Origin: Kayfunavirus PDP351P3
Sequence record: OZ035732.1
Strand: one strand, 5' to 3'
DNA: 39,050 nucleotides
The position numbers and the translations under genes were made by a program. This document shows positions 351 through 38,889 of this stretch, piece after piece. A model generated the notes under the pieces. It saw only the letters and a program-made list of their open reading frames with translations. It was not told the DNA's origin and did not search any database. Numbering within the stretch: the stretch's first letter is position 1; each line of letters begins with the position of its first letter.

Positions 351-752
351 ATGAAAGATTCATACATAAGTGGCGGTTACTGGAAGGTTACTCGTAATGG
401 TAAGGTTCATGGAGTTCATAGATTACTATGGGAGGAAGCCTACGGTCCTATCCCAGATGGTTACGTCATAGACCACATTGATAGGAATCCTATGAATAAC
501 GAACTGTCAAACCTTAGGTGCATACCTAAAGGCGCAAACAAGGCTAACACTGTATCCTCTAGGGAACTACCTAAAGGCGTATACTCTAGGTTTGCTAAAC
601 GTCAAGGTATTACTGTGTACTATGGTGACATTAGGATGGGAGGTAAGAAAGAAACGCACGCTCCTACTAAGAATCTGATGGAAGTCGTGGAATGGGCTAA
701 GTCAACTCATAGTAGAATGCTTAAGGAGACATATGGTATTTCAAATGTTTAA
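351..752 (+). CDS. free-standing HNH homing endonuclease
   Basis: 133-aa ORF with AAGGAGG RBS; motif H-R-LLWEE-YGPIP-GYVIDHID-N-NN-SNLR shared with the two other HNH ORFs in the window; AT-richer codon usage (AGG, ATA, CTA) than neighbours; inserted between genes 18 and 18.5. Confidence 0.85.
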   Translation: MKDSYISGGYWKVTRNGKVHGVHRLLWEEAYGPIPDGYVIDHIDRNPMNNELSNLRCIPKGANKANTVSSRELPKGVYSRFAKRQGITVYYGDIRMGGKKETHAPTKNLMEVVEWAKSTHSRMLKETYGISNV

Positions 753-3400: not shown

Positions 3401-3561
3401 CGCAATCATGGTAACGATTCATGAGCGGAAGACCTAAGGTCAGTACGTGGATAAAGACTCACTCTACTGACCTTAGCTACTGTAGTCAAGGACTTTAGGT
3501 AACACCTTAAGAGAAGCTCACTTAGGGTCATCCTACTTATTGGTCTATCCTAGTGTCGCCT

Positions 3562-3602
3562 GACCTACGGTCCTTGACCTACAGTGGCTGTGGCCTACAG
3601 TA
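3562..3602 (+). repeat. short-repeat array (ACCTACRGT x3), candidate SRR-like repeats left of the terminal repeat
   Basis: GACCTACGGT, GACCTACAGT and GCCTACAGT within 40 bp. Confidence 0.5.
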
Positions 3603-3638
3603 GTGACGATGAGTTTGGACCAAAAGTTTGAGACCACA

Positions 3639-3840
3639 TCTCACAGTTCAAGAACCTCAAGTCTCCCCATAGGCCCTCTTTCAGTCCAGACCAAAGGCCC
3701 TACCCCAGTCTATCATAAGGTTGGACCGATGGTCAAGACGTTAGGTCGACGATAGGTCTAGGCTATGGCTTAGGGAAGGACGATAGGTTGGGACTATGGG
3801 TCTTCTTTGAGTCTCTATCTGTATCAGACCTTGAGTCACT
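3639..3840 (+). repeat. probable direct terminal repeat (single collapsed copy) containing the physical genome ends
   Basis: Begins with TCTCACAGT, the sequence that starts the T7 genome as I recall it; internal similarity to the T7 terminal repeat (TCCCCCATAGG, TCTCTATCTGT); flanked on both sides by ACCTACAGT arrays; boundaries approximate. Confidence 0.45.
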
Positions 3841-3925
3841 ACCTACAGTCTAACTACCTACAGTCTAACTACCTACAGTCATCGACCATCGGTACTGCCG
3901 CTACCTACAGTCAGAGACCTACAGT
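3836..3925 (+). repeat. short tandem repeat array (CTAACTACCTACAGT x3 plus 2 extra CCTACAGT), SRL-like
   Basis: Three tandem 15-bp units followed by two more CCTACAGT copies, directly right of the putative terminal repeat. Confidence 0.6.
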
Positions 3926-4036
3926 TAATAGACACAAAGGCTATAGACTTAAGGTCTAAGACATGTTAGTCAAAGACTATATCCTCTTACACCATGAGGC
4001 CGACGATAGCTTAATCAATATTATTTAAATTACCTA

Positions 4037-4065
4037 TTGACTATGGGTCTCGACTATGGCTTAAT
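4037..4065 (+). promoter_or_regulatory. candidate host sigma70 early promoter (A1-like)
   Basis: TTGACT-N17-CTTAAT; downstream sequence (CGTCAACACGACACGGCA) resembles the T7 A1 region as recalled. Confidence 0.4.
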
Positions 4066-4177
4066 AGCTTCCGTCAACACGACACGGCAACAACCGGATA
4101 GTGAAGACGCCGGGTCATCCCGGTTAAGTAGACAGCCTGCTAAGTCATACGAACAACAGGCAGATGACAGAAAGTAG

Positions 4178-4207
4178 TTGACAAGTAGTACAGACTTAAA
4201 GTAGTAT
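4178..4207 (+). promoter_or_regulatory. candidate host sigma70 early promoter (A3-like)
   Basis: TTGACA-N18-TAGTAT followed by GTACCACAT...CACTGAAA...CTCTTTAACAATCTGG, closely resembling the T7 A3 promoter and downstream leader as recalled. Confidence 0.5.
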
Positions 4208-4406
4208 GTACCACATCGAAACAACGGTGACGACCGACACTGAAACGGTCTACCTGAAGTCCTCTGACTGAAGGGAATGCTCTTTAACAATCTGGATAAA
4301 CTCTTAATGTGCGCCGATAGCGACTAACTACAGGGTCTTTGAGTCTACATCTGAAGGCCCTGACTGATAGTCACTAACACATACTTAACTTTGAGAGGAT
4401 ATAACT

Positions 4407-15923: not shown

Positions 15924-17939
15924 ATGTTTGACCTTAAGGATATTTGGGGTTCGGACATCGAGACCAACGGTCTCCTTGATACAGTATCCCAGTTTCACTG
16001 TGGGGTCCTGATTAACGCCGAGTCGAATGAGACCCTTAAGTATGGGGTAGCTCCGATGGTCGGTATCATCGGGGGCTTCAAAGAGTATGTGCAGAAGGTG
16101 GAAGAGATTGCCACATCACCTGATGGTATGCTGGTATTCCACAACGGTATCAACTATGACGTCCCGGCTATTGACAAGCTGAAGCGTCTGTACTTTGGTA
16201 AACGCTTTAACTTCCCGAAACACAAGATGATTGATACCTTGGTTCTGGGCCGCTTGATGTACCCAAACATTAAGTTCTCAGACATGGGCGCGGTGAAATC
16301 TGGTCGTCTGCCGCCTAAGATGATGGGACGCCAGTCTCTTGAGGCTTGGGGCTATCGTCTAGGTGAGATGAAGGGTGAGTACAAACACGATTACGTTGCC
16401 AAGTGCAAGGCCGAAGGTATCGAATATAAGTCTGGGGACGAATGGTTGTTCCCATCTCAGGAGATGCTGGACTATAACGTTCAAGACGTTGTGGTCACGC
16501 TGGCGTTGTTCAAGAAGTTCCTGACTGACAAGTATTACTTCCAGTCTGAACAGTTCGCTTTCGAACAGATTTATGCGTTGCGTCTGGAACATGATGCTGC
16601 GTGGACCTGCGCGAAGATGGAGCGTAATGGCTATCCGATGAACACCGAGATGGTCGAAGGCTTATATCGTGAACTCACTGTCAAACGTGCGGAGTTACTG
16701 GACAAGCTGCGCTCTACTTTCGGTAGCTGGTACGCACCAAAGGGAGGCAAGGAGTTCTTCAGGCATCCACGGACAGGTAAGGACCTTCCGAAGTACCCGA
16801 GAGTCGTGTATCCTAAGGTAGGTGGCATCTTTAAGAAGCCGAAGAACAAAGCTCAACGCTTAGGTCTTGAACCTTGTGAACTCGATACGCGAGACACGAT
16901 GGAGGGAGCACCCTTCACGCCAATCACTTACGTTGAGTTTAATCCGGGAAGCGGAGACCACTTAGCGAAAGTCCTGATGGAGCGTGGTTGGGAGCCTGTG
17001 GACTTCACTGACACTGGGAAACCGGTAGTTGATGACGAGACGTTAGAACACGTTAAGTTGCCAGACGCAGAGGCTCAGGCTTGCGTAGAGCTGGTCCGTG
17101 AGTATCTGGTAGTCCAGAAGAGAATCGGGCAGGCTGCTGAAGGTAAGAACGCATGGTTGAAACTTGTAGGTCCAGACGGACGTATGCATGGTTCAATCAA
17201 TCCATGTGGTGCAGTAACAGGACGTGCGACCCATAGTTCACCAAACATGGCTCAGGTCCCTGCTAACGGTGCTCCGTATGGTGAGACTTGCCGTGGTGCT
17301 TTCGGTGCAGCGTGGAACAAGAAGGACGGTAAGCCAGACCCTTGGATTCAAGTAGGCGTGGATGCTTCAGGTCTTGAGCTTCGTTGTCTGGGGAACCGAG
17401 CGGCTCCGTTTGATGGTGGAGATTATGCGAAGACTGTGGTCGAAGGTGACATCCACTGGGCCAACGCAGTCAACGCTGGGTTAGCACCTAACGTCCCACG
17501 CGACAAGTCGAACCACGACCACGAGGCTTTCCGTAACAACGCTAAGACGTTCATCTATGCGTTCCTGTATGGTGCAGGGGCAGCTAAGATTGGACTGATA
17601 GTAGGCGGTGGGAAGAAGGAAGGTTCAGCTCTCATGAAGAAATTCATTGAGGGCACACCAGCCATCAAGGACCTCAGGGAAGCTGTGAGTAATACGTTAA
17701 TCTCAGACTCTAAGTGGGTAGATGGTGAGAACATCGTTAAGTGGAAACGCCGATGGTTGCGTGGACTTGATGGTCGCCGTATCCACATCCGGTCTCCACA
17801 CTCAGCACTTAACGCCTTACTTCAAGGCGATGGTGCGGTAATCTGTAAGCACTGGATTGTCGAGACTGAACGTATGCTCGAAGAGGCCGGGTATGTCCAC
17901 GGCTGGGAAGGAGACTTCGCATACATGGCATGGGTGCAT
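15924..17939 (+). CDS. DNA polymerase (T7 gene 5-like), exon 1
   Basis: 672 codons; SDIE.N.LL..V..FHCGV, HNG..YDVPA, NVQDVVVT, GSWY.PKGG.E.F.HPRTGK.LPKYPR, DASGLELRC, AKTFIY.FLYGAG, KWKRRW..GLDGR..H.RSPH.ALN.LLQ, FAYMAWVH match recalled T7 gp5; frame then runs into intron. Confidence 0.9.
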
Positions 17940-18540
17940 AAACTATCTCATTGTGCACATTAAATCTGGTGAACTCGGTGAAACCCTTCTAGGGCAATAC
18001 CGAGCCAAGCCATAGGGAGGATATATGAGAGGCAAGAAGTTAATCCTTGCGACCACAGAGAGTGGTTGTATCATCCCTACGTCACACAAACTTAATGCTG
18101 ATGGTTATTTCCGAAAGAGGACTAACGGTGTCCTAGAGATGTATCACAGGACAGTATGGAAGGAACAGCACGGAGATATACCAGAAGGGTATGAAGTAGA
18201 CCACAAGTGTAGGAACAGGGCATGCTGTAATGCAGAGCATCTCCAGTTACTAGAAGGGTCTGAGCATGCAGTCAAGACAAACAGTGAACGCTACGCTGAC
18301 CGTAAAGAGTCTGCGAGGGAATACTGGTTGGAGACTGGATGTACAGGAACACACTTAGGTGAGAAGTTTGGTGTTACGTTCTCTGCCGCGTGTAAGTGGA
18401 TTAGAGAGTGGAAGGCGTAGAGACTATCCGAAAGGAGTAGGGCCGAGGGTGAGATTCCCTCGTTACCCGAAGCGCCAGACAGTCAACTCAAAGGCTGATG
18501 ATATAGTCCGACACTCCTAGTAATAGGAGAATACAGAAAG
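17940..18540 (+). mobile_element. group I intron interrupting DNA polymerase motif C, carrying an HNH homing endonuclease gene
   Basis: 5' exon ends in U (17939), intron ends in G (18540); exon GUGCAU can pair with intron GUGCAC (17953-17958) as P1; P7 strands AGAGACUA (18419-18426) and GAUAUAGUCC (18500-18509); flanking exons rejoin in frame to give ...AWVH-DEIQV... Confidence 0.8.
18025..18420 (+). CDS. intron-encoded HNH homing endonuclease
   Basis: 131-aa ORF with GGGAGG RBS inside the intron; HNH family motif (YHRTVWKEQHGDIPEGYEVDHKCRNRACCNAEHLQL) shared with ORFs 351-752 and 21443-21835; AGG/AGA-rich codon usage. Confidence 0.85.
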   Translation: MRGKKLILATTESGCIIPTSHKLNADGYFRKRTNGVLEMYHRTVWKEQHGDIPEGYEVDHKCRNRACCNAEHLQLLEGSEHAVKTNSERYADRKESAREYWLETGCTGTHLGEKFGVTFSAACKWIREWKA

Positions 18541-18696
18541 GATGAGATTCAAGTAGCTTGTCGTACTCAGGAGATTGCCGAAGAAGTCGTCAAGATTGCT
18601 CAACTTGCTATGCGTAAGGTGGGTGAGTTCTATAACTTTAAATGTGTTCTTGATACGGAGGGTAAGATTGGACCCACGTGGAAAGAATGTCATTAA
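18541..18696 (+). CDS. DNA polymerase (T7 gene 5-like), exon 2
   Basis: 51 codons DEIQVACRTQEIAEEVVKIAQLAMRKVGEFYNFKCVLDTEGKIGPTWKECH*, colinear with recalled T7 gp5 C-terminus (DEIQVGCRTEEIA...RCLLDTEGKMGPNWAICH). Confidence 0.85.
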   Translation, partial: DEIQVACRTQEIAEEVVKIAQLAMRKVGEFYNFKCVLDTEGKIGPTWKECH

Positions 18697-21205: not shown

Positions 21206-21446
21206 ATCAATCAGTAAGGCTTTCAAGAAAGTGGTGAAAAGTACGTTAGGGACAGTGGGTCTTGGCTCTGACGATGCTCCTAAGGTTGTTGAGGCTCAGA
21301 CCCCAGCAGCACCAGTGGAAGTACCGAACGACCAAGTGGAGGATGTGGATACTGAAACAACCGCATCTGATGAGAAGAAAGTGAAGCGTTCTGGTAAGCG
21401 TAGCCTTCAGGTCTCTCGCACCTCTGGTGGAGGCATCTCTATATGA
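21198..21446 (+). CDS. gp7.3-like tail/adsorption protein
   Basis: 82 aa, GTG start with AAGGAG RBS; MGK...KK..K, central VEVP, KRSGKRSLQVSRTSGGGISI vs recalled T7 gp7.3 ...GGKKSLSVARSSGGGINI. Confidence 0.75.
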   Translation: MGKSISKAFKKVVKSTLGTVGLGSDDAPKVVEAQTPAAPVEVPNDQVEDVDTETTASDEKKVKRSGKRSLQVSRTSGGGISI

Positions 21447-21835
21447 CACCATGTCATGAATGGGGTGGATATTGCACCAAGGATGGCTACGGTGAAACTA
21501 GGGTAGATGGGCGCAAGGTTCGCGTTCATCGCCTAGAGTGGACGAAACACTACGGACCCATTCCGCATGACAAAGTGGTTCGCCACAAGTGTGACAACCC
21601 TAAGTGTTTTAATATTGAACACCTAGAGTTAGGAACAACACAAGATAACACGGCTGACAGAGTGTCTCGTGGTCGAAGCGCCAAAGGAGAGGATAACGGT
21701 AACGCCATCCTCACTATTGATATTGTCAATGAGATTCGCGAGAGTGGCATGTCTCAGCGCAAAATAGCGAAGACCTATGGAGTGTCACAGTCTACCGTAT
21801 CTAAAATCAAACGCAATGTAACGTGGAGGGCATAA
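21443..21835 (+). CDS. HNH endonuclease with C-terminal helix-turn-helix (gene 7.7 position)
   Basis: 130 aa; VHRLEWTKHYGPIPHDKVVRHKCDNPKCFNIEHLEL (HNH); C-terminal QRKIAKTYGVSQSTVSKIKRN (HTH-like); T7 gene 7.7 is also an HNH-type gene. Confidence 0.85.
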   Translation: MTPCHEWGGYCTKDGYGETRVDGRKVRVHRLEWTKHYGPIPHDKVVRHKCDNPKCFNIEHLELGTTQDNTADRVSRGRSAKGEDNGNAILTIDIVNEIRESGMSQRKIAKTYGVSQSTVSKIKRNVTWRA

Positions 21836-25742: not shown

Positions 25743-26309
25743 ATGGCTCAATACATTCCACTGAATGCTAACGATGACTTAGATGCCATCAACGATATGT
25801 TAGCTGCTATCGGTGAACCAGCAGTCCTACAGCTTGACGAGGGTAACGCTGATGTCTCGAATGCTCAACGTATCCTACATCGTGTCAATCGTCAGGTCCA
25901 AGCTAAAGGATGGAACTTTAACATCAACGAAGCTGCTGTCCTGACACCTGATGTCCAAGACAATAGGATTCGATTCCTACCGTCATACCTTCGTGTAATG
26001 ACTGCCGGGGCCACCAGCTATTATAGCAACATGGGTGGATACCTGTACGACCTGTCCACTCAGTCAACCACTTTCACCGACCCTATAACGGTAGAGCTTG
26101 TTGAGATGAAACCATTCTCTGAGATGCCAGTGGTCTTCAGGGACTACATCGTTACCAAGGCTAGCCGTGAGTTCAACGCTAAGTTCTTCGGTAGCCCAGA
26201 GTCAGAGCTATACCTTCGTGAGCAGGAAGCAGAACTCTATCAGCAGGTTATGGAGTACGAGATGGACACTGGTCGCTACAACATGATGTCTGACATCGGG
26301 AGGGACTAA
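25743..26309 (+). CDS. tail tubular protein A (T7 gp11-like)
   Basis: 188 aa; D.L..IGEP.V..L.EGNAD...A.RIL...NRQ.Q..GW.FNI.E, ASR.FN..FFG.PE, EYEMD.G.YNM match recalled T7 gp11. Confidence 0.9.
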   Translation: MAQYIPLNANDDLDAINDMLAAIGEPAVLQLDEGNADVSNAQRILHRVNRQVQAKGWNFNINEAAVLTPDVQDNRIRFLPSYLRVMTAGATSYYSNMGGYLYDLSTQSTTFTDPITVELVEMKPFSEMPVVFRDYIVTKASREFNAKFFGSPESELYLREQEAELYQQVMEYEMDTGRYNMMSDIGRD

Positions 26310-26536
26310 TGGCTAGTCACAACCTGAAGATTCACCGCCAGCACTTTGGTCCGGTACAACTAGGTCTAAAGACAGCAGAGCTGAGACTTAACGACCGGGA
26401 CTTTAAGGTTGGCGACTGGCTTATTCTGAATGAGTGGGACAACGGGTACACTGGACAACAGGTAGCACGTAAGGTTGTCCACATTGCTGACGTTGGTGAC
26501 ATCGCTGAGGGATACGTCCTAATGAGTATGATTTAA
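26309..26536 (+). CDS. ASCH/DUF3850-like small protein inserted between tail tubular genes
   Basis: 75 aa; H.LKI....F.PV..G.KT.E.R.NDRDFKVGDWLIL.EWD...YTG......V..I.......GYVLMS fits the DUF3850 (ASCH-fold) pattern as I remember it; T7 has no gene here. Confidence 0.6.
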   Translation: MASHNLKIHRQHFGPVQLGLKTAELRLNDRDFKVGDWLILNEWDNGYTGQQVARKVVHIADVGDIAEGYVLMSMI

Positions 26537-36272: not shown

Positions 36273-38762
36273 ATGTCCACGATTACACAATTCCCTTCAG
36301 GAAACACTCAGTACAGGATTGAGTTCGACTACCTATCCAGAACGTTTGTTGTTGTTACTCTGGTGAATAGCTCTAACCTTACCCTGAACCGTGTACTGGA
36401 AGTTGGTCGAGATTACCGATTCCTTAATCCAACGATGATTGAGATGTTGGTTGACCAATCAGGTTTCGACATCGTTCGTATTCACCGTCAGACTGGAACT
36501 GACTTAGTGGTAGACTTCAGGAATGGCTCAGTGTTGACAGCTAGTGACCTGACTAATGCAGAGCTTCAGGCTATCCATATTGCAGAAGAAGGTCGAGACC
36601 AAACGGTTGACTTAGCGAAGGAATATGCCGATGCTGCTAGTAGCTCTGCTGGCAACGCTAAGGATAGCGAGGACGAAGCACGCCGAATCGCTGATAGTAT
36701 CAAGACATCTGGTCAAATTGGCTATATTACCCGCCGCTCCTTCGAGAAAGGCTTCAACGTTACAACATGGAACGAGGTCCTGCTATGGGAAGAGGATGGC
36801 GAATATTACCGTTGGGACGGTGACTTTCCTAAAACCGTACCTGCTGGCTCAACTCCTGAAACTTCAGGTGGAGTTGGTTTAGGTGCATGGGTTAGCGTTG
36901 GTGATGCGTCACTTAGAGGGCAAATATCTTCTAAATACGGATTATCAATTATTGGTGGGTTTGAATCAGTAGATGATATGAGATCCTATTCATCAGTTGC
37001 AAGTTTGCCAGACGGCACAAGGGCTTTCTTGTTTAGTTTTTATGCCGGGAAAAGCATTGGTGGAGGTATATTTCAATGGCACAGTAACGCAACAACTGAT
37101 GATGATGGCTTCTCTGTTATTAAACCATCAGCTGTTTCAGGAGCAGGTCGATGGATTAACATTAAACGTGGCAGACTAACCCCGGAAGAATGTGGGTGCG
37201 TACCTAATGACCCATCATTTGACAACGGCGTACCGCTTAATAGATGGGCGTCACAGCAGCATTGTATAGGTTCCGTTGGCGTCTTTTATAAAACAACTGC
37301 TTTAATTCCGTCACCGCCAGCGTACCCACAGTATATAGACGCTAAAGGCATGAGGCTGATGACTACTGTGGCTGACGTAAATGGGGTGGAACTCTCCTCT
37401 GATATGTCTCGACGTATCAATATTGAGGGTCTTGAGTCGTTCGGTGACCCGTCATTAACAGTAACGAATCGCAATAAAGCCAACGGCTTCTATATCGCTG
37501 GCTGTAGGGAAGTAGTCCTAAAAAACATTCGCTGTGAGGGATGGAAAAACGCTGGTGTCTGGTGGTTTGAAGTCAACAATATGACTATCGACGGATTTAT
37601 TGGATGGAGAAATGATTGGGATGGTTCCACACTATTCTCCTCTGGTGGGGATTTAGTTGAATGGACTTCGAGCGACGGGTTGGCGAAATCCTGCAGTATA
37701 ACTAATTTCGCGTGTTTTTCAGATGGCAGCCAAAGCATATCCATAAACTCATTATCTTTTGGGCGAAATGTACTAATCAGTAACGGACGCTGTTTCACGT
37801 ATGACGCTACAGATTTTACACCAAAAACTCGGACTAACATAAAAGCACGACATGGAATCACGATAGGTTACAACTCCAACCAGACGTATGGTGGTGGTGT
37901 TAAAGTTAGTAACGTCATTATCAGAGATAAGGGGTGGACTGGCATTTGCCGCTCTGGTGGTTTAGATGGCGCTGTACGATATCAACCAGCTACCATTTCT
38001 AACGTTTCAGTGTACGATTGCGGTTTTGGTATAAACCAAGACAACATTGGTGCTGGTATTCTGTTTGGTGACGTAGTTGACGGAGACATGATCAACAACT
38101 GTTATGTGGAAGGTTTCGCCAACGCTAATAACGGTGCGTACAAAATTCAGGATTCTGTAGGTACAGGGAAGCTGACAATAGCTAACTGTGTTGATAAAGG
38201 TTCTGCTGGATACGGTGTACACATAGCGACAGAATCGGTTAACGTAATGGTTATCGGCCACAGAAGCATAGAACCAACCGGTGCAGGTATTTTCCTTGAG
38301 GCAAAAGGCGGCGCAACACTATTCCGGTCGCATACTGTTGACGGATGTCGTATTGAGCGTGTGACGGACGGTTACGGAATATTTTTGTCTAACGGCGTAA
38401 TTAGTGCGAATATCAAAAACAATGAAATCCGTGGTACTTCTACGAACTCCACAACAAACTGTGCTATTCGTGTAAACCAAAATGGGCAAAACATAAATAT
38501 CAGAGGAAATCAGATTTACGGTTTTGCATACGGGTTGTGGTACAACACCTATGTGAACACCACAACGGTATTCCCGTGGGGTAACAACCAATTCTTCGGC
38601 TGCATTAACGCACACCGTTTCGCAAGGACGACAGGAACCAGTGTTGCTAAGGTAGAACCTAATTATTACGACGGCGCTACTACAAATCAATTCTCTAATG
38701 GTGGCGTAGGAACGAGTAACGGAACGGAAGAATTTAGAGTTAATGGCACTCCCGTGACCTAA
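36273..38762 (+). CDS. tailspike: T7 gp17-like N-terminal tail-attachment domain fused to a parallel beta-helix (putative polysaccharide depolymerase) module
   Basis: 829 aa; residues 1-150 resemble recalled T7 gp17 N-terminus (EFDYLSR.FVVVTL, DYRF, LVDF.NGS.L.A.DL..A.LQ..H.AEE.RD); remainder has beta-helix-type repeats (NNCYVEGF, NNEIRGTS, IRGNQIYG) and is AT-richer than the rest of the genome. Confidence 0.9.
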   Translation: MSTITQFPSGNTQYRIEFDYLSRTFVVVTLVNSSNLTLNRVLEVGRDYRFLNPTMIEMLVDQSGFDIVRIHRQTGTDLVVDFRNGSVLTASDLTNAELQAIHIAEEGRDQTVDLAKEYADAASSSAGNAKDSEDEARRIADSIKTSGQIGYITRRSFEKGFNVTTWNEVLLWEEDGEYYRWDGDFPKTVPAGSTPETSGGVGLGAWVSVGDASLRGQISSKYGLSIIGGFESVDDMRSYSSVASLPDGTRAFLFSFYAGKSIGGGIFQWHSNATTDDDGFSVIKPSAVSGAGRWINIKRGRLTPEECGCVPNDPSFDNGVPLNRWASQQHCIGSVGVFYKTTALIPSPPAYPQYIDAKGMRLMTTVADVNGVELSSDMSRRINIEGLESFGDPSLTVTNRNKANGFYIAGCREVVLKNIRCEGWKNAGVWWFEVNNMTIDGFIGWRNDWDGSTLFSSGGDLVEWTSSDGLAKSCSITNFACFSDGSQSISINSLSFGRNVLISNGRCFTYDATDFTPKTRTNIKARHGITIGYNSNQTYGGGVKVSNVIIRDKGWTGICRSGGLDGAVRYQPATISNVSVYDCGFGINQDNIGAGILFGDVVDGDMINNCYVEGFANANNGAYKIQDSVGTGKLTIANCVDKGSAGYGVHIATESVNVMVIGHRSIEPTGAGIFLEAKGGATLFRSHTVDGCRIERVTDGYGIFLSNGVISANIKNNEIRGTSTNSTTNCAIRVNQNGQNINIRGNQIYGFAYGLWYNTYVNTTTVFPWGNNQFFGCINAHRFARTTGTSVAKVEPNYYDGATTNQFSNGGVGTSNGTEEFRVNGTPVT

Positions 38763-38792
38763 CAAAACCCCGCTTCGGCGGTGTTGTTTTAT
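38762..38792 (+). terminator. putative hairpin/terminator after tailspike gene
   Basis: ACAAAACCCCGC-TTCG-GCGGTGTTGTTTT: about 12-bp stem with one mismatch, UUCG-type loop, T-rich tail. Confidence 0.4.
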
Positions 38793-38889
38793 CATCAGAA
38801 GGTTGTGGAGGTAGAGGCTAACTACACGCTGACCAACGTATGATAACAACTTTGGGTCATGGACGACCCGCTTTAAACTGGAGGTTTTA

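What the first reader, a model, noticed from the sequence alone, without database searches (positions are those of the whole stretch)
17940..18540. Group I intron with HNH homing endonuclease splits the DNA polymerase gene at catalytic motif C
The polymerase frame ends at ...FAYMAWVH (17939) and runs into a stop 8 codons later. The rest of the conserved C-terminus (DEIQV...LDTEGKIGPTWKECH) resumes in frame at 18541. The 601-bp insert shows group I hallmarks directly in the sequence: U before the 5' splice site, terminal G at 18540, a P1 pairing between exon GUGCAU and intron GUGCAC (17953-17958) with U-G wobble at the splice site, and P7-type strands AGAGACUA / GAUAUAGUCC. A 131-aa HNH ORF with its own RBS sits in the intron. 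The insertion lies between the His and Asp of the invariant polymerase motif C (VHDE), a classic homing site. Introns of this kind have been reported in gene 5 of some T7-like phages (recalled, not checked), so the element class is probably known, but this copy and its homing endonuclease specificity may be uncharacterised.
Basis: partly seen in the sequence, partly recalled or inferred. Interest (0 to 1): 0.8.

Follow-up and report, generated by a model that had tools for sequence, protein, structure and literature searches.

The report
Known self-splicing intron in phage polymerase
The DNA polymerase gene of this K1F-like coliphage is interrupted, right at its catalytic centre, by a 601-base mobile group I intron carrying its own HNH homing endonuclease; the element is real and well supported, but it is a family already described and experimentally characterised in T7-like phages.

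Summary
Gene 5 (family A DNA polymerase) breaks after ...FAYMAWVH (17939) and resumes at 18541 (DEIQV...). The joined 723-aa product aligns without a gap to T7 gp5 across H653|D654. The 601-nt insert (17940-18540) is a group I (IA2-type) intron, with a 131-aa HNH_3 endonuclease ORF (18025-18420) in the P6a loop.

- **Rfam:** RF00028 matches end to end but below cutoff (38 vs 50 bits). Six ORF-bearing relatives also fail, while ORF-less relatives score 59 and 94 bits.
- **Covariation:** on 14 copies, 96.5% of cells pair (35-43% when slid), and 32 of 65 pairs change on both sides.
- **Mobility:** the nearest relatives lack the intron. This copy is 97-99% identical to that of T7-type phage 13a, but only about 80% identical to K1F's. 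A roughly 16-nt 13a-type co-conversion tract sits in exon 2.

The element is already known: Bonocora & Shub 2004 and 2009 (ΦI, W31, I-TslI), and K1F and 13a annotate gene 5 as a join. Splicing and cleavage by this particular copy are inferred, not shown. Interest is low.

The parts
15924..17939 (+). Exon 1 of gene 5 (family A DNA polymerase), 672 codons ending ...FAYMAWVH
   Evidence: ORF list. Pfam DNA_pol_A, E = 1.4e-27. Gapless alignment to T7 gp5.
17940..18540 (+). Group I (IA2-type) intron, 601 nt; U at position -1 (17939), terminal G at 18540
   Evidence: Rfam RF00028 over the full model, 38 bits, E = 5.5e-8. Covariation on 14 copies. Absent from the nearest relatives.
17934..17941 (+). 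P1 5' strand: exon GUGCAU plus intron AA; the splice site follows U17939
   Evidence: Pairs with 17951-17958. U-G at the splice site in 14 of 14 copies. The exon/guide pair G-C changes to A-U in 3 copies (helix 1).
17951..17958 (+). Internal guide sequence UUGUGCAC (P1 3' strand)
17945..17952 (+). P10 5' strand AUCUCAUU, pairing with the first 8 nt of exon 2 (18541-18548, GAUGAGAU)
   Evidence: Sequence. C-G changes to U-A in step with the synonymous GAG/GAA codon in exon 2 (helix 2).
17965..17971 (+). P3 5' strand UCUGGUG (pairs with 18473-18479, CGCCAGA)
   Evidence: 5 of 7 pairs have changes on both sides; 100% of cells paired (helix 3). Recovered in the MFE fold.
17975..18003 (+). P4-P5 domain: P4 17975-17980 with 17998-18003; P5 17984-17987 with 17991-17994; A-rich J4/5 and J5/4
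   Evidence: helices 4-5. Matches the Rfam alignment. Recovered in the MFE fold.
18004..18013 (+). P6 (18004-18006) and P6a (18010-18013) 5' strands; their partners are 18414-18416 and 18408-18411, and the ORF lies in the P6a loop
   Evidence: helices 6-8 (C-G to U-A in P6; P6a changes on both sides). The ORF-less relatives close this helix with a short hairpin.
18014..18021 (+). Shine-Dalgarno-like AGGGAGGA, 3 nt upstream of the ORF's ATG
   Evidence: Sequence. The GG core is invariant in the alignment.
18025..18420 (+). Intron-encoded HNH homing endonuclease gene (131 aa plus stop); the last codons overlap the P6a and P6 3' strands, and the UAG stop lies in J6/7
   Evidence: Pfam HNH_3, E = 5e-16. 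PHROG 6254 HNH endonuclease, E = 2.5e-46. 45% identical to T3 gene 5.3 'homing endonuclease'. AF2 model pLDDT 88.5, best PDB fold match I-HmuI.
18422..18427 (+). P7 5' strand GACUAU (pairs with 18503-18508, AUAGUC)
   Evidence: 100% of cells paired; two pairs change on both sides in the Arash copy (helix 9).
18428..18468 (+). P7.1 (CC-GAAA-GG, 18428-18435), invariant GUA linker (18437-18439) and P7.2 (18440-18468): the IA2 signature
   Evidence: helices 10-12. GUA is invariant. The IA2 criterion is as stated in PMC3428280.
18480..18497 (+). P8 hairpin CAGUC...GGCUG
   Evidence: helices 13-14 (all pairs vary, several on both sides). Recovered in the MFE fold.
18514..18529 (+). P9 hairpin CUCCU-AGUAAU-AGGAG
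   Evidence: 4 of 5 pairs change on both sides; 100% of cells paired (helix 15).
18541..18696 (+). Exon 2 of gene 5 (51 codons plus stop), starting with the catalytic Asp-Glu of motif C; the first ~16 nt are a 13a/T7-type co-conversion tract
   Evidence: Window GATGAGATTCAAGTAG equals 13a, whereas six intron-less Kayfunavirus alleles have GA(C/T)GA(A/G)(T/C)T(G/A)CAGATTGC. From nt 19 onward the window is identical to them.

Best explanation
A mobile, self-splicing group I intron of subgroup IA2 interrupts gene 5 between the codons for His and the catalytic Asp of polymerase motif C (T7 H653|D654; E. coli Pol I site 881). After transcription the RNA folds into the P1-P10 ribozyme. Exogenous guanosine attacks after U17939, which sits in the P1 U-G pair. 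P10 then aligns exon 2, the exons are ligated after G18540, and the mRNA encodes an intact 723-aa polymerase. The ORF in the P6a loop makes an I-HmuI/I-TslI-type HNH endonuclease that cuts, probably by nicking, intron-less gene 5 alleles in co-infecting phages. Repair from the intron-bearing genome then copies in the intron plus a few flanking exon bases (homing). Shown here: the exact exon junction, the ribozyme secondary structure by covariation, the HNH domain, the presence/absence polymorphism, and lateral transfer with a co-conversion tract. Inferred from homologues and general knowledge: actual splicing and cleavage by this copy.
For: The junction is exact and collinear with T7 gp5. Rfam Intron_gpI matches the full model at E = 5.5e-8. 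ORF-less relatives pass the curated cutoff: Arash at 58.9 bits and L087, at a polymerase H|D site, at 94.4 bits. My explicit structure on 14 copies gives 96.5% paired cells against 35-43% when slid, 32 of 65 pairs with changes on both sides, and 0 of 500 shuffles reaching any measure. U at -1 and the terminal G are invariant. The MFE fold of the ORF-deleted RNA recovers P3-P6a, P7.1, P7.2, P8 and P9 with z = -3.4. HNH_3 matches at E = 5e-16. Intron-less alleles exist in the closest relatives. Against 13a, identity is 96-100% in the intron but 58-78% in the exons; against K1F the exons are ~94% identical but the intron ORF only 73.5%. Exon 2 carries a 16-nt co-conversion tract. GenBank/RefSeq annotate gene 5 of K1F and 13a as two-piece joins. 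The literature reports self-splicing of the ΦI/W31 intron and nicking by I-TslI.
Against: The window copy scores below Rfam's gathering threshold (38 vs 50 bits), although ORF-bearing relatives all do the same. No RNA or biochemical data exist for this copy. The two primary papers (PMC529087, PMC2856452) were not available to read, and the ΦI/W31 sequences could not be compared directly. The structural match of the HNH model to I-HmuI is weak (E = 6e-3, TM 0.37).
Confidence: 0.94

Rival explanations
1. Split gene without splicing: the polymerase is made as two polypeptides (679 aa and about 51 aa) that assemble, as in 'genes in pieces' created by free-standing endonuclease insertions.
For: Many database records annotate the two halves as separate 'DNA polymerase' CDSs, for example ECBP2, PAS59 and Edwardsiella DT115P1.
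Against: Exon 2 has no in-frame start codon before its 24th codon, so no ORF of at least 30 aa is called in that frame and the catalytic Asp-Glu could not be translated independently. The insert has a fully covarying ribozyme fold, which a simple endonuclease insertion would not need. The intron guide sequences P1 and P10 covary with the exon sequence.
Confidence: 0.02
2. A decaying, splicing-defective relic of the intron: a dead element in a defective or misassembled genome.
For: Degenerate copies do exist. The Citrobacter phage NS1 copy has a mutated P7 3' strand and no proper exon 2 after it. No expression data exist for this copy.
Against: All core helices are intact in the window. The 3' ribozyme half is 100% identical and the 5' half 98.8% identical to phage 13a. 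The HNH ORF is uninterrupted with all family-invariant residues. The rest of the genome is collinear with viable K1F-like phages.
Confidence: 0.03
3. Another kind of intervening element, such as an intein, a group II intron or a translational bypass.
For: The polymerase frame is interrupted at a conserved catalytic motif, which is also typical of inteins.
Against: An in-frame stop comes 8 codons into the insert, so protein splicing is impossible. No Rfam group II hit appears, while the full-length group I model matches. 601 nt is far beyond known ribosomal bypass.
Confidence: 0.01

Closest known systems
[quoted passage not shown]
   Same: Same host gene and same insertion site (E. coli Pol I position 881, His|Asp of motif C). 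Same subgroup features: no P2 in this lineage, and P7.1 and P7.2 joined by GUA. HNH ORF in P6a (as described in PMC3428280). I-TslI is reported as a nicking homing enzyme.
   Different: Direct sequence identity to ΦI/W31 could not be measured, because AY769989 and AY769990 are not in the searchable collections. This copy sits in a Kayfunavirus rather than a T7/T3-type phage.
The intron annotated in gene 5 of coliphage 13a (NC_011045) and present in BUCT788, HZP2, SYGE1 and Bas103/104
   Same: 97-98.7% nucleotide identity over all 601 nt. Same boundaries, and the same first 16 nt of exon 2.
   Different: In 13a the flanking polymerase exons are only 58-78% identical to the window, so the host backbone differs (Teseptimavirus vs Kayfunavirus). 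BUCT788 shares both the backbone and the intron.
The K1F-type intron of the same genus (K1F gp5.3, CLB_P1, Ro45lw)
   Same: Same site, same architecture, and annotated as a join in GenBank. Described as a putative group I intron in PMC4925675.
   Different: Only ~80% identical overall, with the ORF at 73.5% nucleotide and 78% amino-acid identity. It has a different P1 loop and P10 guide, matched to its own exon 2 (GAUGAGUUA).
T3 gene 5.3, a free-standing HNH homing endonuclease next to an intron-less gene 5
   Same: Homologous protein, 45% identical over residues 6-94. The published model is that the intronic and free-standing enzymes target the same polymerase sequence (summarised in PMC10448857).
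   Different: T3 5.3 is free-standing and shorter. The window has no gene 5.3 between genes 5 and 5.5.
I-HmuI / I-BasI / I-PfoP3I: HNH nicking endonucleases of group I introns in other phage DNA polymerase genes
   Same: HNH_3-type His-Me finger nuclease encoded inside a polymerase-gene group I intron. The best PDB fold match is I-HmuI, 1u3e.
   Different: Different insertion sites (674 and 676 vs 881 in E. coli numbering). The ORF is in P8 in SPO1 rather than P6a. No detectable sequence similarity to any PDB chain.

Membership tests
Group I intron (Rfam RF00028) | Score at or above the curated gathering threshold of the covariance model | tested here: not met
   38 bits against a cutoff of 50, although E = 5.5e-8 and the full model (1-253) is matched. 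Six ORF-bearing relatives also fail, while ORF-less relatives score 58.9 and 94.4 bits. The model misplaces the ~400-nt ORF insertion, aligning P7 5' to 18044 instead of 18422.
Group I intron | U at the last exon position forming a U-G wobble in P1 with the internal guide sequence | tested here: met
   U17939 pairs with G17953; U-G in 14 of 14 copies. The exon/guide pair covaries G-C to A-U (helix 1).
Group I intron | Terminal guanosine (omega-G) at the 3' end of the intron | tested here: met
   G18540, invariant in 14 of 14 aligned copies (invariant G247).
Group I intron | Conserved core P3-P4-P5-P6-P7-P8-P9, with the P3/P7 pseudoknot supported by covariation | tested here: met
   65 pairs, 96.5% paired, 32 with changes on both sides, 0 of 500 shuffles, slid controls 35-43%. 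The MFE fold agrees for the nested helices.
Group I intron | P10 pairing between the guide region and the start of the 3' exon | tested here: met
   17945-17952 AUCUCAUU with 18541-18548 GAUGAGAU: 7 Watson-Crick pairs plus one G-U. C-G changes to U-A together with GAG/GAA.
Group I intron | GTP-dependent self-splicing | not testable with these tools
   Reported for the ΦI/W31 homologues (Bonocora & Shub 2004, cited). Not shown for this copy.
Subgroup IA2 | Extra helices P7.1 and P7.2 linked by G-U-A | tested here: met
   P7.1 at 18428-18435, GUA at 18437-18439 (invariant), P7.2 at 18440-18468 (helices 10-12). The criterion is quoted from PMC3428280.
HNH (His-Me finger) homing endonuclease, I-HmuI/I-TslI type | HNH catalytic domain | tested here: met
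   Pfam HNH_3, 58.5 bits against a cutoff of 24.8. H60, N69, H72 and H81 are invariant across 46 homologues.
HNH homing endonuclease | Encoded in a peripheral loop of a self-splicing intron, with its own translation signals | tested here: met
   The ORF lies in the P6a loop, with an AGGGAGGA Shine-Dalgarno 3 nt before the ATG.
HNH homing endonuclease | Genetic footprint of homing: presence/absence polymorphism at one site, a phylogeny discordant with the host gene, and exon co-conversion | tested here: met
HNH homing endonuclease | Site-specific cleavage or nicking of the intron-less allele | not testable with these tools
   Reported for I-TslI of ΦI. Not tested for this protein.
HNH homing endonuclease | I-HmuI-like three-dimensional fold | tested here: inconclusive
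   The AF2 model is confident (pLDDT 88.5). I-HmuI 1u3e is the top PDB hit, but only at E = 5.8e-3 with TM 0.37.

The most novel reading that the evidence does not exclude
This genome, with its near-twin BUCT788, records a natural cross-genus homing event. A Teseptimavirus (13a/T7-type) intron entered a Kayfunavirus polymerase gene and brought a ~16-nt exon-2 tract. That tract rewrites two residues next to the catalytic Asp (DELQIA to DEIQVA) and preserves the intron's own P10 pairing. As a result, two distinct intron lineages (13a-type and K1F-type) now occupy the identical site within one genus. The same intron family also sits at the same His|Asp junction in Gordonclarkvirinae, Grimontviridae and other phages, which suggests much broader inter-family spread than the published ΦI/W31/T3 picture.
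Probability: 0.8. Interest if true: 0.3.

Novelty: already known. Interest (0 to 1): 0.15.

Why it matters
Practically, it matters for annotation. Gene callers split this essential polymerase into a truncated 679-aa ORF, an 'HNH endonuclease' and sometimes a tiny second 'DNA polymerase', and many deposited relatives carry that error. Gene 5 should be annotated as join(15924..17939,18541..18696). Biologically, it is a clean natural example of intron homing between phage genera, with a mapped co-conversion tract and guide sequences that covary with the exon. It adds no new principle beyond what Bonocora & Shub established for T7-like phages.

Tried and rejected
- **Rfam at gathering thresholds on the whole window:** no hit. 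The permissive search was needed. I then showed that the shortfall goes with the ORF insertion, by scoring ORF-less and ORF-bearing relatives.
- **Reading the two primary papers** (DOI, PMC529087, PMC2856452): not held. I relied on how other papers cite them.
- **The search for related loci with the HNH protein in viral contigs:** only 4 loci. The phage GenBank collection and a core-motif DNA scan were more productive.
- **Sequence search of the HNH protein against the PDB:** nothing at E <= 1. The fold search gave only a weak I-HmuI match.
- **The large protein-database search:** many homologues but no informative names.
- **MAFFT misaligned the P8 5' strand in divergent copies,** so P8 pair counts (85-93% paired) understate the support. 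The helices are evident per sequence.
- **Considered and rejected:** intein (in-frame stop), a two-polypeptide split gene (no start codon for exon 2), and group II intron or translational bypass.
- **RBS sequestration:** I looked for evidence that intron folding hides the HNH ribosome-binding site and found no convincing pairing. I make no claim either way.

Full report
**What the window is.** The 39,050-nt window is a complete, circularly permuted genome of a K1F-like coliphage (Kayfunavirus, Autographiviridae). It is 93-95% identical over 25 kb to Kayfunavirus PDP351P4, P762, Bas105 and others, and collinear with K1F once the permutation is allowed for. The finding concerns gene 5, the T7-type family A DNA polymerase.

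**Checking the observation.**
- The ORF 15924..17963 ends ...GDFAYMAWVH-KLSHCAH-stop.
- From 18541 the frame reads DEIQVACRTQEIAEEVVKIAQLAMRKVGEFYNFKCVLDTEGKIGPTWKECH-stop.
- Joining 15924-17939 to 18541-18696 gives a 723-aa protein. It aligns to T7 gp5 (PDB 6n7w and others) at E = 8e-274 with no gap at the junction, and GDFAYMAWVH|DEIQV is identical in T7.
- Counting along that alignment places the insertion between T7 H653 and D654. From established knowledge of T7 DNA polymerase, D654 is one of the two metal-binding catalytic aspartates. This corresponds to E. coli Pol I position 881, the site that PMC3428280 gives for the ΦI and W31 introns.
- The insert is 601 nt (17940-18540), preceded by U and ending in G. 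It contains a 131-aa ORF (18025-18420) that matches Pfam HNH_3 (E = 5e-16) and PHROG 6254 'HNH endonuclease' (E = 2.5e-46). A Shine-Dalgarno-like AGGGAGGA lies 3 nt upstream of its ATG.

**Is the insert a group I intron?** Rfam's Intron_gpI model does not reach its curated threshold on the window. With the permissive threshold it matches from model position 1 to 253 over 17930-18530, at 38 bits and E = 5.5e-8. In that alignment the model places the P7 5' strand at about 18044 and treats everything up to P3' as an insertion. The true P7 strand, GACUAU, lies at 18422, immediately after the ORF.

The low score therefore looked like a cost of the ORF, and I tested that on relatives:
- An ORF-less relative in Salmonella phage Arash scores 58.9 bits.
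- An ORF-less relative sitting at a polymerase ...FVH|DEY... junction in a viral contig (L087) scores 94.4 bits.
- Six ORF-containing relatives in that same run, and all the ORF-containing phage copies, fail the threshold just as the window does.

**Secondary structure.** I derived an explicit structure (coordinates):

| Element | Coordinates and sequence |
|---|---|
| P1 | exon GUGCAU + AA (17934-17941) with guide UUGUGCAC (17951-17958) |
| P10 | 17945-17952 AUCUCAUU with exon 2 18541-18548 GAUGAGAU |
| P3 | 17965-17971 with 18473-18479 |
| P4 | 17975-17980 with 17998-18003 |
| P5 | 17984-17987 with 17991-17994 |
| P6 | 18004-18006 with 18414-18416 |
| P6a | 18010-18013 with 18408-18411, enclosing the ORF |
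| P7 | 18422-18427 with 18503-18508 |
| P7.1 | 18428-18435 |
| GUA linker | 18437-18439 |
| P7.2 | 18440-18468 |
| P8 | 18480-18497 |
| P9 | 18514-18529 |
| omega-G | 18540 |

There is no P2 in this lineage. The ORF's last four codons overlap the P6a and P6 3' strands, and its UAG stop lies in J6/7.

**Comparative test of the structure.** I collected copies from 13a, BUCT788, HZP2, Teseptimavirus PDP351P2, K1F, Aeromonas phage PT2, ECBP2, PAS59, Edwardsiella phage DT115P1, Vibrio phage Vp_R1, two viral contigs and Arash. I replaced the ORF interiors with N's and aligned them. On that alignment:
- 96.5% of cells form standard pairs, against 35-43% when the 3' partners are slid by 1-3 columns.
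- 32 of the 65 pairs show changes on both sides.
- None of 500 column shuffles reaches any of the five measures.
- P3 has 5 of 7 covarying pairs and P9 has 4 of 5.
- The exon/guide pair at the base of P1 switches from G-C to A-U in three phages.
- The P10 pair switches from C-G to U-A together with the synonymous GAG/GAA codon in exon 2.
- U at -1, the U-G wobble, omega-G and the GUA linker are invariant.

Independently, the minimum-free-energy fold of the ORF-deleted RNA recovers P3, P4, P5, P6, P6a, P7.1, P7.2, P8 and P9 exactly as drawn (z = -3.4, 0 of 200 shuffles). P7 forms a pseudoknot with P3, so that method cannot recover it. Having P7.1 and P7.2 joined by GUA is the criterion for subgroup IA2 quoted in PMC3428280.

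**Evidence of mobility.**
- *Presence/absence.* An artificial spliced junction aligns as a single continuous piece in the nearest relatives: P762, ST31, PH1061, PSK1, Bas105 and P7124 (sequences). The intron is therefore present in some close genomes and absent from others.
- *Discordant ancestry.* The intron alone is found in 62 phage records. The window copy is 97-98.7% identical to those of BUCT788, 13a, SYGE1, HZP2 and Bas103/104, but only about 80% identical to the K1F-type copy of its own genus.
- *Segment-wise identity.* Against 13a the exons are 58-78% identical, while the intron is 98.8% (5' ribozyme), 95.7% (ORF) and 100% (3' ribozyme). Against K1F the exons are about 94% identical, while the intron ORF is 73.5%.
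- *Co-conversion tract.* Six intron-less Kayfunavirus alleles begin exon 2 with GA(C/T)GA(A/G)(T/C)T(G/A)CAGATTGC (protein DELQIA). The window begins with GATGAGATTCAAGTAG (DEIQVA), identical to 13a for 16 nt, and from nt 19 onward is identical to the Kayfunavirus alleles. This is the classic footprint of homing, and the tract also preserves the intron's P10 pairing.
- *Upstream of the splice site.* All intron-bearing alleles have GGGTGCAT, which P1 requires. Several intron-less alleles have GTCCAC or GTTCAC, and so lack the U at -1.

**The endonuclease.**
- It has more than 150 homologue clusters. Across 46 of them C15, H21, H41, H60, C62, N69, H72, H81, N86 and C123 are invariant.
- T3 gene 5.3, annotated 'homing endonuclease', is 45% identical over residues 6-94. 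Many Kayfunavirus and Klebsiella phages carry a free-standing homologue between genes 5 and 5.5. This matches the published idea that the intronic and free-standing enzymes target the same polymerase sequence, sometimes called collaborative homing (PMC10448857).
- The ΦI enzyme I-TslI is cited as a nicking homing endonuclease with a 9-bp core site.
- An AlphaFold model is confident (pLDDT 88.5). Its best PDB fold match is the nicking HNH homing endonuclease I-HmuI, but only weakly (probability 0.95, E = 6e-3, TM 0.37). Sequence search against the PDB finds nothing.

**Rival explanations.**
- *A two-polypeptide split polymerase* is unlikely. Exon 2 has no in-frame start before its 24th codon, so the catalytic Asp-Glu could not be translated without splicing. 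A covarying ribozyme would also be pointless.
- *A decayed, non-splicing relic* is unlikely because every core helix is intact and nearly identical to 13a.
- *An intein* is excluded by the in-frame stop.

**Comparison with what is known.** This is the intron family described by Bonocora & Shub (2004) in ΦI and W31, and studied for homing in 2009. K1F's and 13a's database records already annotate gene 5 as a two-piece join around the endonuclease. [quoted passage not shown] I could not read the two primary papers or compare the ΦI/W31 sequences directly.

**Verdict.** The feature is real, correctly delimited and correctly interpreted, and it is already known. The modest additions from this analysis are:
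- the complete covariation-supported structure, including P10 and the P6a placement of the ORF;
- the explanation of the sub-threshold Rfam score;
- the demonstration that this copy is a 13a/T7-type intron laterally acquired by a Kayfunavirus, with a 16-nt co-conversion tract;
- the observation that relatives occupy the same His|Asp site in several other phage groups (Gordonclarkvirinae, Grimontviridae, Aeromonas and Edwardsiella podoviruses).

Splicing and cleavage by this specific copy remain inferred.

Noticed in passing
window 351-752 (+): Free-standing HNH_3 endonuclease ORF (133 aa, Pfam E = 4e-18) between the small terminase gene (18) and the Rz-like gene (18.5). The whole 342-740 segment is absent from K1F. 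It is only ~32% identical to the intron's HNH protein.
   Followed up: partly
window 21443-21835 (+): Second free-standing HNH_3 endonuclease with a C-terminal helix-turn-helix (130 aa, Pfam E = 3e-17), inserted between gene 7.3 and the portal gene 8. Absent from K1F. About 29% identical to the intron's HNH protein. The genome therefore carries three HNH endonuclease genes.
   Followed up: partly
window 26309-26536 (+): A 75-aa DUF3850/ASCH-domain ORF lies between tail tubular genes 11 and 12 and is absent from K1F.
   Followed up: partly
window 36908-38796: The C-terminal part of the tail spike/fibre gene has no nucleotide match in K1F, whose gene encodes the endosialidase. This suggests a different receptor-binding or depolymerase module, and so a different host capsule type.
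   Followed up: no
window 3428-4378: The window is circularly permuted relative to K1F: window position 1 corresponds to about K1F 36156. Window 3639-3815 matches both K1F ends, so it corresponds to the terminal repeat present once here, and the true genome ends probably lie there.
   Followed up: partly
window 18359-18520 (+): A 53-aa GTG-start ORF runs across the ribozyme core (P6 to P9) and corresponds in position to K1F's annotated 'gp5.4 / unknown' CDS. Because it overlaps the conserved, covarying RNA helices it is probably a spurious gene call.
   Followed up: partly
L009 (Citrobacter phage NS1, MN715150.2 277-2079): This K1F-type intron copy has a mutated P7 3' strand (AUACUC) and a mutated P7.1. 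It is not followed by GATGAG, and it lies at the start of the record. It is either a decaying copy or a misassembled or rearranged genome.
   Followed up: no
L057 (IMGVR_UViG_3300013297_000194), 790-2873: Four separate Rfam-significant group I introns (64-99 bits) lie within about 2.1 kb of one viral contig, an unusually dense cluster.
   Followed up: no
L016 (Salmonella phage Arash, OQ632216.1) 1049-1320: An ORF-less group I intron (Rfam 58.9 bits), related in its 3' core to the window's intron, splits a polymerase gene that the record annotates as separate 'DNA polymerase nu' and 'DNA polymerase theta' CDSs. It retains an RBS and ATG remnant in its P6a hairpin.
   Followed up: partly
L011, L012, L013, L014, L015 and other phage records: Many deposited genomes annotate the intron-split polymerase as two independent 'DNA polymerase' CDSs plus an HNH gene instead of a join, for example ECBP2, PAS59, Edwardsiella DT115P1, Vibrio Vp_R1 and SJSY21, and Yersinia vB_Yep_15. 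This is a systematic misannotation. All of them carry the intron at the same His|Asp junction.
   Followed up: partly
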